A stretch of 64,000 bases of DNA, from the NCBI RefSeq assembly GCF_001677475.2, contig NZ_CP015229.1; one strand, 5' to 3'. Source of the stretch: Escherichia coli. GTDB lineage: Bacteria > Pseudomonadota > Gammaproteobacteria > Enterobacterales > Enterobacteriaceae. The notes under the pieces are model-generated. The model was not told where the DNA came from, did not search any database, and saw only the letters and a list, made by a program, of their open reading frames with translations. Shown piece by piece: positions 53,877 through 54,006 of the stretch. The position numbers were made by a program, and so were the translations under genes. Every line of letters begins with the position of its first letter. The first letter of the stretch is position 1.

Positions 53877-54006
53877 GTCGGATGCGGCGCGAGCGCCTTA
53901 TCCGACCCATGGTTCGCTATCTCTGGTATATGCCTGATAAGACGCGAATAGCGGCGCATCAGGCAACACTGCCAGTGTCGGATGCACCGCGAGCGACCGA
54001 TCCGAC
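53877..54006. repeat. Cluster of three REP elements (BIME-like) between znuB and ruvB
   Basis: tgtcggatgcggcgcgagcgccttatccgacc, tgcctgataagacgcgaatagcggcgcatcaggca, tgtcggatgcaccgcgagcgaccgatccgac. Confidence 0.6.

What the first reader, a model, noticed from the sequence alone, without database searches (positions are those of the whole stretch)
53877..54006. Cluster of three REP palindromes (BIME-like) filling the znuB-ruvB gap; other REPs after pykA and yebE
Three imperfect palindromes of about 30 nt in alternating orientation occupy the whole intergenic space between znuB and ruvB; similar single elements occur at 48756-48790 and 39578-39666. These could be mistaken for a CRISPR-like repeat array but have the sequence character of E. 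coli REP/BIME elements, which can act as mRNA stabilisers or transposition targets.
Basis: partly seen in the sequence, partly recalled or inferred. Interest (0 to 1): 0.15.

Follow-up and report, generated by a model that had tools for sequence, protein, structure and literature searches.

The report
Ordinary E. coli REP/BIME repeat cluster
The gap between the converging genes znuB and ruvB holds three copies of the well-known E. coli REP palindrome arranged as a BIME, an ordinary and long-described feature whose copy number varies between strains and which is a natural landing site for the insertion sequence IS1397.

Summary
The 149-nt gap between znuB (+, ends 53857) and ruvB (-, stop codon 54007-54009) contains three imperfect palindromes: 53877-53906 (+), 53931-53965 (-) and 53977-54006 (+). 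They are separated by linkers of 24 and 11 nt. All three match the published E. coli REP consensus far better than chance. REP1 and REP3 are Y-type and REP2 looks Z2-type. With the alternating orientation, this is a BIME-2-like cluster.

The same locus exists in 5,425 of 5,426 complete E. coli genomes. It carries 3, 5 or 7 REPs, built from a 97-100-nt tandem unit. In 556 genomes IS1397, which specifically targets REPs, sits in the loop of REP2. REP1 and REP2 are conserved across Escherichia species, each with one compensatory stem change. REP3 is decaying.

The gap has no intrinsic terminator, no Rfam family, no IHF site and no cas context. The window's copies have all lost the GTAG/CTAC foot that the REP transposase needs, so they are probably immobile.

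The likely role, which is inferred and not shown here, is as 3'-UTR hairpins for both converging operons. They would block exonucleases and partly terminate transcription. REP3 lies 0 nt from the ruvB stop codon and may damp RuvB translation.

The feature is already known and of low interest.

The parts
53072..53857 (+). znuB, the zinc ABC transporter permease gene. Its stop codon TAA is at 53855-53857, 19 nt before REP1.
   Evidence: ORF; annotated orthologues in K-12 and KE55.
53877..53906 (+). REP1, Y-type, a 30-nt imperfect palindrome. The foot tetranucleotide at 53907-53910 is CCAT instead of CTAC.
   Evidence: It has 0 mismatches to both half-site patterns and scores 28/34 against the published consensus. 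The hairpin folds at -19.2 kcal/mol, z = -3.2, with the conserved single mismatch. It is conserved in 7 Escherichia lineages.
53907..53930 (.). 24-nt linker on the foot (CTAC/GTAG) side of REP1 and REP2: CCATGGTTCGCTATCTCTGGTATA.
   Evidence: It is repeated in register in the 5-REP and 7-REP alleles. It varies more than the REPs across species.
53931..53965 (-). REP2, inverted, with a longer inner stem (Z2-like). The foot on its 5' side reads GTAT followed by AT (53926-53931) instead of GTAG. One inner pair is broken (A.G) in this lineage.
   Evidence: It has 0 or 1 mismatch to the half-sites on the minus strand. The hairpin folds at -17.7 kcal/mol, z = -5.1. IS1397 is inserted in its loop in other strains.
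53966..53976 (.). 11-nt short linker between the head ends of REP2 and REP3: ACACTGCCAGT.
   Evidence: repeated in register in the multi-unit alleles.
53977..54006 (+). REP3, a degenerate Y-type copy that directly abuts the ruvB stop codon. The position where CTAC would lie reads TTAC, which contains the complement of that stop codon.
   Evidence: It scores 24/34 against the consensus, versus a best of 23 in simulations. The hairpin is weak, -10.9 kcal/mol, z = -1.4. Better copies occur in K-12 and E. albertii, and it is partly deleted in two Escherichia lineages.
54007..55017 (-). ruvB, the Holliday-junction helicase gene. Its stop codon is at 54007-54009, 0 nt from REP3.
   Evidence: C-terminus ...GITPPEMP*; annotation.
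48757..48790 (+). Single Y-type REP with an intact CTAC foot, 7 nt after the pykA stop codon. It sits between the converging genes pykA and lpxM. An intrinsic-terminator-like hairpin follows at 48853-48879.
   Evidence: 30/34. The hairpin folds at -24.7 kcal/mol, z = -6.4. The terminator scan is.
39581..39616 (+). Z-like REP with a CTAC foot, the first member of a tail-to-tail pair between yebF and yebE.
   Evidence: The predicted hairpin is weak, z = -0.4.
39631..39664 (-). Y-like REP with a GTAG foot, the second member of the pair. It lies 27 nt downstream of the yebF stop codon (39692-39694).
   Evidence: 27/34. Hairpin z = -2.0.

Best explanation
This is a resident E. coli BIME, a cluster of three REP palindromic units in Y - inverted Z2 - Y order. 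That makes it BIME-2-like: one 100-nt unit plus a terminal degenerate Y REP. It occupies the shared 3' region of the converging znuCB and ruvAB operons.

Shown here:
- It belongs to the dispersed, high-copy REP family.
- The locus is ancestral to the genus Escherichia.
- It expands and contracts by whole 97-100-nt units, giving 3, 5 or 7 REPs in different strains.
- Its REP2 loop is a natural insertion site for IS1397.

Inferred from published work on other REPs:
- Either operon's transcript, where it reads into the gap, would carry the REPs as stable hairpins. No intrinsic terminator is present in the gap.
- The hairpins would block 3'-to-5' exonucleases and act as partial, probably Rho-dependent, terminators in both directions.
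- REP3 starts 0 nt after the ruvB stop codon. It could therefore stall terminating ribosomes and lower RuvB output. Its weak stem in this strain makes that effect doubtful.
- All three REPs in this window lack an intact GTAG/CTAC foot, so this copy is probably no longer a substrate for the REP-associated transposase TnpA-REP.
For: Identity:
- The sequences match the consensus.
- The hairpins are predicted, with the conserved stem mismatch.
- The location is extragenic between converging genes.

BIME-2-like behaviour:
- Gaps of 146-149, 245 and 340 nt correspond to 3, 5 and 7 REPs.
- Tandem Repeats Finder reports period 97, 3.4 copies, 91% matches in strain AHM9C68I.
- In an evenly spaced sample of 59 genomes, about 43 had 3 REPs, 5 had 5, 3 had 7, 1 had a 70-nt insertion and 7 were interrupted.
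- This fits the published description of BIME-2: y plus z2 REPs, in tandem, with copy number variable between strains (PMC3333891).

Transposition target: IS1397 lies between the two stem arms of REP2 in strain FDAARGOS_1373, and the junction is present in 556 genomes.

Conservation: the REP1 and REP2 hairpins are kept in 7 Escherichia lineages, each with one compensatory pair. The linkers and REP3 drift.

No competing element: the gap has no terminator-like site, no Rfam family and no IHF consensus.

Functional inference from the literature:
- REPs between converging genes correlate with higher expression of both genes, and REP325 acts as both terminator and stabiliser (bioRxiv 10.64898/2026.03.23.713779).
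- REPs fewer than 16 nt from a stop codon down-regulate translation (Liang et al. 2015, as summarised in PMC12306157).
- GTAG and the stem mismatch are required for TnpA-REP binding and cleavage (PMC3333891).
Against: - No transcript, half-life or termination data for this locus were available, so the RNA-level role is extrapolated. The same 2026 preprint stresses large context dependence and finds no general lengthening of half-life.
- About 10% of E. coli genomes tolerate a 1.4-kb IS in REP2. REP3 is mutated or partly deleted in several lineages. An intact cluster is therefore not essential.
- REP3's hairpin in this window is not clearly better than shuffles (z = -1.4).
- The whole-gap fold prefers REP1:REP3 pairing over individual hairpins, so the structure in vivo is uncertain.
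- The Z2 assignment, as opposed to Z1, and the naming of the linkers as S/s/l/r rest on my recollection of the Bachellier/Gilson consensus figures, which I could not retrieve.
Confidence: 0.9

Rival explanations
1. The cluster is purely selfish or neutral repeat DNA. It would be a relic of TnpA-REP (RAYT)-driven proliferation that persists in a permissive gap between two gene ends and has no host function.
For: - Copy number varies freely between strains.
- IS1397 interrupts REP2 in 556 genomes, and a 64-nt element interrupts the REP1 foot in others.
- REP3 is decaying.
- The GTAG/CTAC feet are lost in this window.
- Other genera hold unrelated genus-specific palindromes in the same gap. This suggests a permissive landing pad rather than a conserved functional sequence.
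Against: - REP1 and REP2 are more conserved than the linkers across Escherichia species, and each keeps its stem through one compensatory change. Gene conversion from other REP copies could mimic this.
- Every enterobacterial genus examined keeps some stable palindrome here, and the gap has no other terminator.
- Published genome-wide data link REPs between converging genes to expression effects.
Confidence: 0.3
2. The main local role is translational. REP3, starting immediately after the ruvB stop codon, would stall terminating ribosomes. That would trigger mRNA cleavage and tmRNA rescue, lowering RuvB relative to RuvA.
For: - REP3 starts 0 nt from the ruvB stop codon.
- This adjacency is conserved in Escherichia. 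In E. albertii, E. whittamii and Escherichia sp. E1V33 the stop codon TAG itself forms the REP foot GTAG.
- The published rule is that REPs fewer than 16 nt from a stop codon down-regulate translation (Liang et al. 2015, via PMC12306157).
Against: - REP3 is the weakest hairpin of the three in this window (-10.9 kcal/mol, z = -1.4).
- It is degraded or partly deleted in several lineages.
- No data exist for ruvB, and I could not retrieve the Liang et al. gene list.
Confidence: 0.2
3. It is a CRISPR-like or other spacer-acquiring repeat array.
For: Only a superficial resemblance: repeats of about 30 nt that are partly palindromic and regularly spaced.
Against: - The repeats alternate in orientation.
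- The 'spacers' are the same conserved 24-nt and 11-nt linkers in every unit and every strain.
- The units belong to a genome-wide family.
- The neighbours are znuACB and ruvAB, with no cas genes.
Confidence: 0.01
4. It is a locus-specific bidirectional intrinsic (Rho-independent) terminator that only happens to resemble REPs.
For: It consists of GC-rich hairpins between converging genes. About 40% of REPs between converging genes overlap predicted bidirectional terminators in one published set.
Against: No hairpin in the gap is followed by a T-run on either strand. The terminator scan found nothing in 53858-54006. The sequence is clearly a member of the dispersed REP family.
Confidence: 0.03

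Closest known systems
E. coli BIME-2 (bacterial interspersed mosaic element made of Y and Z2 REPs/palindromic units; Gilson, Bachellier, Hofnung; summarised in Ton-Hoang et al. 2012, PMC3333891)
   Same: - Y-type and Z2-like REPs alternate in orientation, with one short linker (11-12 nt) and one longer linker (23-25 nt).
- The arrangement is tandem, with copy number differing between strains at the same locus (3, 5 or 7 REPs).
- There is no IHF-binding L motif.
- The position is extragenic, at 3' ends of genes.
   Different: - This strain has only 1.5 units.
- All three REPs have lost the canonical GTAG/CTAC foot.
- REP3 is strongly degenerate.
- I could not confirm the Z2 label or the S/s/l/r linker names against the original consensus figures.
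REP325 (yjdM-yjdN, 12 alternating Z2/Y units), shown to be a dual partial Rho-dependent terminator and mRNA stabiliser (Harris et al. 2026 preprint, 10.64898/2026.03.23.713779)
   Same: It has the same repeat family and the same alternating Y/Z2 architecture, and it is also transcribed as a 3'-UTR element.
   Different: REP325 sits between tandem genes inside an operon and has 12 units. The cluster here has 3 units between converging operons, and no experiment addresses it.
IS1397 target sites (the IS3-family element that inserts specifically into REPs of BIMEs; Clement et al. 1999 and Wilde et al. 2001/2003, as cited in PMC1525189 and PMC3333891)
   Same: In 556 complete E. coli genomes IS1397 lies in the central loop of the REP2 orthologue of this very cluster.
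   Different: The window itself carries no IS, so it represents the empty site.
BIME-1 / RIP-RIB elements (Y plus Z1 REPs flanking a long L linker with an IHF site)
   Same: They also consist of two inverted REPs of the same superfamily in an extragenic position.
   Different: BIME-1 is single-copy and not tandem, and has an L linker of about 30 nt with an IHF consensus. No IHF consensus is present here, and the locus is tandemly amplified in other strains.

Membership tests
E. coli REP / palindromic unit family | A 30-40-nt imperfect palindrome matching the REP consensus (GCCGGATGCGGCG...CGCCTTATCCGGCCTAC and its variants) | tested here: met
   Half-site scans are enriched over shuffles, and the best hits lie in the claimed sites. 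Ungapped scores are 28/34 for REP1 and 24/34 for REP3, against a simulated maximum of 23. The consensus is taken from PMC12306157.
E. coli REP / palindromic unit family | A stem-loop with a conserved mismatch or bulge in the stem | tested here: met
   REP1 has a 12-bp stem with one internal mismatch. REP2 has an 8-bp outer stem, an internal loop and an inner stem. REP3 keeps the 7-bp outer stem only, so it is a degenerate copy.
E. coli REP / palindromic unit family | The conserved GTAG tetranucleotide (CTAC on the other strand) at the foot of the palindrome | tested here: not met
   In the window the three feet read CCAT (REP1), GTAT followed by AT (REP2) and TTAC (REP3, overlapping the ruvB stop codon). 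K-12 and other alleles have CTAC/GTAG at REP1 and REP2. The window copies are therefore mutated descendants of canonical REPs, not non-members. The REPs at pykA and yebF in the window do keep CTAC/GTAG.
E. coli REP / palindromic unit family | High copy number, dispersed, extragenic | tested here: met
   There are six REPs at three intergenic loci in this 64-kb window.
BIME-2 | REPs of two types (Y and Z2) in alternating orientation | tested here: inconclusive
   Alternation (+ - +) and two distinct types are shown: GTCGGATGCGGCG...ATCCGAC versus GCCTGATGCG(A/C)CGC...GCGTCTTATCAGGC with a longer inner stem. Calling the second type Z2 rather than Z1 relies on my memory of the consensus figure. 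The original papers were not retrievable.
BIME-2 | Tandem amplification of the REP-iREP unit, with copy number variable between strains at one locus | tested here: met
   Alleles with 3, 5 and 7 REPs. The period is 97 nt with 3.4 copies. This matches the description in PMC3333891.
BIME-2 | A specific S linker and s/l/r flanking motifs | not testable with these tools
   The linker lengths (11-12 nt and 23-25 nt) are measured. The motif definitions from Bachellier et al. 1994 were not available for comparison.
BIME-2 | Bound and cleaved by DNA gyrase in vivo (Espeli and Boccard 1997) | not testable with these tools
   This is a biochemical property, cited only through reference lists.
BIME-1 | A single Y/Z1 pair separated by a long L linker carrying an IHF site | tested here: not met
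   No WATCAANNNNTTR match occurs in 53858-54006. The locus is tandemly amplified in other strains.
IS1397 insertion target | IS1397 is found inserted within the palindromic unit | tested here: met
   The IS3-like IS1397 transposase gene lies between znuB and ruvB in strain FDAARGOS_1373, with the two halves of REP2 on either side. The znuB-REP1-half-REP2-IS junction is present at 80% coverage or more in 556 genomes.
CRISPR array | Direct repeats separated by unique spacers of uniform length, with cas genes nearby | tested here: not met
   The repeats are inverted relative to each other. The linkers are conserved and repeated. The neighbours are znuACB and ruvAB.
Intrinsic (Rho-independent) terminator | A GC-rich hairpin immediately followed by a T-run | tested here: not met
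   No terminator-like site lies inside the gap on either strand. By contrast, one follows the pykA REP at 48853-48879.

The most novel reading that the evidence does not exclude
The znuB-ruvB BIME might be a tunable, strain-variable, bidirectional 3'-end module. The number of Y/Z2 units (3, 5 or 7), IS1397 interruption (about 10% of genomes) and the integrity of the stop-codon-abutting REP3 would together set how much Zur-regulated znuCB and SOS-regulated ruvAB transcription collide or read through, and how much RuvB is made relative to RuvA. Natural alleles of this repeat would then cause heritable differences in recombinational-repair capacity without any coding or promoter change.
Probability: 0.12. 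Interest if true: 0.35.

Novelty: already known. Interest (0 to 1): 0.08.

Why it matters
It matters little as a discovery. REP/BIME elements have been described since 1984-1991, and this locus is present in E. coli K-12. Its practical value is for annotation.
- The cluster should not be called a CRISPR array, an sRNA or a coding ORF. Two spurious ORFs of 72-75 aa span it.
- It marks a polymorphic site that is useful for strain typing.
- It explains why this 449-nt stretch is only about 93% identical to K-12 while the flanking genes are better conserved.

The population survey gives a clean natural illustration of two textbook REP properties at a single locus: unit-wise copy-number change, and IS1397 targeting in 556 of 5,426 genomes.

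Tried and rejected
- **Rfam:** a gathering-threshold scan of the whole window found nothing in the gap. The only hits were SraC/RyeA, SdsR/RyeB and a cspA-type thermoregulator elsewhere.
- **Promoter and terminator scan:** nothing was found in the gap, so an intrinsic terminator is rejected.
- **IHF consensus:** the scan was negative, so BIME-1 is rejected.
- **RefSeq K-12 record:** I looked for REP repeat_region features there. This copy lists none, so I could not give the EcoCyc REP number.
- **Primary papers:** I tried to retrieve the BIME and IS1397 papers and Liang et al. 2015 (PMC94167, PMC333889, PMC169884, PMC4427526). None is held. The Y/Z1/Z2 consensus figures, the IS1397 target-duplication length and the list of stop-proximal REPs could therefore not be checked directly.
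- **Did the REP supply ruvB's stop codon?** This is rejected. The C-terminus ...PP(E/A/Q)MP* and its stop position are conserved in genera that carry unrelated repeats.
- **Does the BIME extend into ruvB coding sequence?** Tandem Repeats Finder runs only 6 nt past the stop codon (TTACGG versus CTACGG). That is too short to distinguish from chance.
- **IS1397 target duplication:** the flanks read ...GACGAACA[IS]GCAGCGTC... against the empty site GACGAACAGCGTC. This gives an imperfect 2-3-bp repeat that I did not resolve.
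Full report
**1. What is in the sequence**

The window is E. coli chromosome covering yebE to ruvA, about 1.93-1.95 Mb in K-12. A 1.1-kb query around the finding matches 5,425 of 5,426 complete E. coli genomes under annotated znuB and ruvB. K-12 and strain KE55 show the same gene order: znuA, znuC, znuB, then ruvB and ruvA on the other strand.

In the window, znuB is 53072-53857 (+) and ruvB is 54007-55017 (-). The genes converge on a 149-nt gap, 53858-54006. Reading the gap and the repeat finder give three imperfect palindromes:

| Element | Coordinates | Sequence | Consensus strand |
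|---|---|---|---|
| REP1 | 53877-53906 | GTCGGATGCGGCGCGAGCGCCTTATCCGAC | + |
| REP2 | 53931-53965 | TGCCTGATAAGACGCGAATAGCGGCGCATCAGGCA | - |
| REP3 | 53977-54006 | GTCGGATGCACCGCGAGCGACCGATCCGAC | + |

REP1 and REP3 are direct copies, 84% identical and 100 nt apart. REP2 is the inverted partner. The linkers are 24 nt (53907-53930) and 11 nt (53966-53976). The first 19 nt of the gap are not REP.

**2. More than chance**

- The degenerate half-site GYCKGATGCGRCG with up to 2 mismatches gives 26 hits, against 11.8 +/- 3.7 in shuffles.
- The other half-site, CGYCTTATCMGRC, gives 18 hits against 7.6 +/- 2.7.
- I scanned with the 34-nt consensus quoted in the RepRanger paper, GCCGGATGCGGCGTGAACGCCTTATCCGGCCTAC (PMC12306157). 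Ungapped scores are 28/34 for REP1, 24/34 for REP3, 30/34 for the pykA REP and 27/34 for one yebF REP. The best score in 100 first-order Markov simulations of the window was 23.
- REP2 and the other yebF REP need 2-3 gaps because their inner stem is longer.
- Predicted hairpins are -19.2 kcal/mol (z = -3.2) for REP1, -17.7 (z = -5.1) for REP2 and only -10.9 (z = -1.4) for REP3.

REP3 alone would not be convincing. It is identified by its register in the repeat and by better-preserved orthologues, such as K-12 GCCGGATGCGGCGCGAGCGACCAATCCGAC and E. albertii GTCGGATGCGGCGCAAGCGCCTTATCCGAC.

**3. The two other sites**

- 48757-48790 is a single, nearly canonical Y REP with an intact CTAC foot. It lies 7 nt after the pykA stop codon, between the converging genes pykA and lpxM. 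A terminator-like hairpin with a T-run follows at 48853-48879.
- 39578-39666 is not single. It is a tail-to-tail pair: 39581-39616 (+, Z-like, CTAC foot) and 39631-39664 (-, Y-like, GTAG foot).
- yebE (38706-39365) and yebF (39692-40060) are both on the minus strand. The pair is therefore 27 nt downstream of yebF and upstream of yebE. The label 'after yebE' is correct only positionally.

**4. A member of a dispersed family**

The 97-nt REP1-linker-REP2 segment, searched at blastn sensitivity, finds at least 15 places per genome. The window itself holds six REPs at three loci. That is in line with the several hundred REPs reported for K-12: 584 REPs in PMC3333891 and 355 annotated REP elements of 1-12 units.

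**5. Population behaviour of this locus**

| Strain or allele | Gap length | REPs |
|---|---|---|
| Window, KE55 | 149 nt | 3 |
| K-12 | 146 nt | 3 |
| Strain 131 | 245 nt | 5 |
| Strain AHM9C68I | 340 nt | 7 |

- The alleles differ by whole units of 97-100 nt. Each unit is Y REP, 23-25-nt linker, inverted Z REP, 11-12-nt linker. A terminal degenerate Y REP abuts ruvB.
- Tandem Repeats Finder reports period 97, 3.4 copies and 91% matches in AHM9C68I.
- In an evenly spaced sample of 59 chromosomal hits, about 43 have the 3-REP length, 5 the 5-REP length, 3 the 7-REP length, 1 a 70-nt insertion and 7 are interrupted. This is a sample along a ranking, not a census.
- The window's unit is 94/100 identical to the second unit of strain 131's allele, 90/100 to its first unit and 88/100 to K-12's unit.
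- The window and K-12 3-REP alleles are therefore different unit variants. This explains the low identity (about 93%) of this stretch to K-12.
- This behaviour is what Ton-Hoang et al. describe for BIME-2: y and z2 REPs in multiple tandem copies, well conserved within a locus, with number variable between strains (PMC3333891).

**6. A natural IS1397 target**

In strain FDAARGOS_1373 an 'IS3-like element IS1397 family transposase' lies between znuB and ruvB. The flanks show REP1, the linker and the left arm of REP2 (GCCTGATAAGACGAACA) on one side. The right arm (GCAGCGTCGCATCAGGC) followed by REP3 is on the other. The IS therefore sits in the central loop of REP2. A 301-nt query across the znuB-side junction is covered at 80% or more in 556 genomes. 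This is consistent with the 637 genomes that lack a contiguous match. IS1397 is the classic REP/BIME-specific insertion sequence (cited in PMC1525189 and PMC3333891). The result gives independent, functional confirmation that these are bona fide REPs.

**7. Depth in evolution**

A degenerate pattern for the RuvB C-terminal peptide WNHFGITPP returned 84 loci from the genome collection, nearly all Enterobacteriaceae. The C-terminus ...PP(E/A/Q)MP* and its stop position are conserved across genera, so the REP did not create the stop codon.

All Escherichia lineages recovered carry the same Y - inverted Z - Y trio. These are E. albertii, E. whittamii and three further Escherichia lineages recovered in the scan (records titled Escherichia sp. 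MOD1-EC7003, Escherichia sp. E1V33 and E. coli SCPM-O-B-8794). The other Escherichia-titled record, Escherichia sp. ESNIH1 (L026), lacks the trio and instead carries a GTAGCCCCGGTAAGCG-type palindrome almost identical to that of Pseudescherichia vulneris. In the alignment of the Escherichia trio loci, REP1 and REP2 are nearly invariant, while the linkers and flanks vary. REP3 is mutated or partly deleted in several.

RNAalifold recovers both hairpins in all seven sequences, with one compensatory pair each: UA to CG in REP1 and CG to UA in REP2. This is weak evidence for constraint on structure, since gene conversion from other REPs could give the same pattern.

Salmonella, Citrobacter, Enterobacter, Klebsiella, Raoultella, Kosakonia and Lelliottia each have a different palindrome in the same gap. 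Several are recognisable genus-type REPs. The gap is thus a recurrently colonised position.

**8. What is absent**

The gap has no terminator-like hairpin with a T-run, no Rfam family and no IHF consensus. There are no cas genes, no unique spacers and no direct orientation.

**9. How it most likely works**

*Shown.* It is a BIME-2-like REP cluster, a tandemly variable repeat and an IS1397 target.

*Inferred.* The two operons converge and no intrinsic terminator is present in the gap, so transcripts that read into it would carry the REPs at their 3' ends.

- Published work attributes several roles to transcribed REPs: protection against 3'-to-5' exonucleases, partial Rho-dependent termination and, between converging genes, elevated expression of both partners. 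Context dependence is strong (preprint 10.64898/2026.03.23.713779).
- REP3 begins 0 nt after the ruvB stop codon and the pykA REP begins 7 nt after its stop codon. REPs fewer than 16 nt from a stop codon are reported to stall ribosomes and lower translation (Liang et al. 2015, via PMC12306157).
- REP1 is 19 nt from the znuB stop codon, outside that range.
- REP3's weak stem in this strain makes a strong effect on RuvB doubtful.
- At the DNA level, TnpA-REP needs the GTAG foot and the stem mismatch. The window's three feet read CCAT, GTAT followed by AT, and TTAC, whereas K-12 has CTAC and GTAG at REP1 and REP2. This copy is therefore probably inert for RAYT-mediated cleavage or recombination. 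This is an inference.
- Whole-gap folds prefer long-range REP1:REP3 pairing. That is expected for repeated palindromes and leaves the conformation in vivo open.

**10. Comparison with known systems, and verdict**

The closest known system is E. coli BIME-2. BIME-1 fails for lack of an IHF/L linker and because the locus is tandemly amplified. CRISPR and intrinsic terminator both fail.

Two membership points remain open, because the original consensus figures could not be retrieved: the formal Z2 label and the S/s/l/r linker names. The GTAG feature is tested and not met in this window. It is met in orthologous alleles, so these are decayed members rather than something different.

Nothing here departs from known REP/BIME biology. 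Novelty is 'already known' and interest is about 0.08.

Noticed in passing
L006 1478-3056 (E. coli FDAARGOS_1373; orthologue of window 53858-54006): IS1397 is inserted in the loop of the REP2 orthologue. The junction is present in 556 of 5,426 complete E. coli genomes, so this one REP is a very common IS1397 site. Whether that reflects inheritance or recurrence is not resolved.
   Followed up: partly
L005 about 808-871 (E. coli GU2018_CL13; insertion at the foot of the REP1 orthologue): A 64-nt element (CTTGTATTATCCC...GCATGCCG, with an internal hairpin) is inserted right after ...TATCCGAC, and that octamer is repeated at its far end. It occurs in 2,234 of 5,426 genomes, with a median of 5 and up to 27 copies, at 99% identity or more. 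Its nt 27-64 coincide with the end of an IS110-family transposase fragment in strain 720632 (L092 2001-2038). It may be an IS621-like end remnant or a miniature element that targets REPs.
   Followed up: partly
L050 3492-3733, minus strand (Pseudenterobacter timonensis): A 108-nt unit made of the last ~20 codons of ruvB plus the adjacent REP is repeated three times in tandem. REP-associated tandem amplification there has copied part of the coding sequence.
   Followed up: no
L044, about 330 nt or more downstream of the ruvB stop codon, minus strand (Citrobacter amalonaticus): At least five REP-like palindromes, all in the same (direct) orientation with a period of about 72 nt, follow ruvB. This architecture differs from the alternating Escherichia BIME at the same position.
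   Followed up: no
L009, L071, L079 (E. albertii, E. whittamii, Escherichia sp. E1V33), ruvB stop codon: The end of ruvB reads CCG-TAG-GTCGGATAAGG. The stop codon TAG plus the last base of the Pro codon form the canonical GTAG foot of the adjacent REP. In E. coli, including the window at 54006-54010, the stop codon is TAA, so the foot is GTAA.
   Followed up: partly
window 53708-54156: This stretch is only about 93% identical to K-12 and 99.5-99.6% identical to a few strains (KE55, ST2747). The window's repeat unit resembles the second unit of a 5-REP allele more than K-12's unit. This suggests that different unit losses or recombination produced the two 3-REP alleles.
   Followed up: partly
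window 53819-54046 (-) and 53882-54100 (+): Mechanical ORFs of 75 and 72 aa run through the REP cluster. They are almost certainly artefacts of the GC-rich palindromes and should not be annotated as genes.
   Followed up: no
window 32758-32902 (both strands): Rfam finds the overlapping antisense sRNA pair SraC/RyeA (+, 175 bits) and SdsR/RyeB (-, 114 bits).
   Followed up: no
window 16810-17270 (-): Rfam finds a full-length match to the cspA thermoregulator 5'-UTR family (136 bits). It presumably belongs to a cold-shock-family gene in this region.
   Followed up: no
window 48853-48879 (+): An intrinsic-terminator-like hairpin with a T-run lies between the pykA REP and the end of lpxM. Here, unlike in the znuB-ruvB gap, a conventional terminator accompanies the REP.
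   Followed up: no
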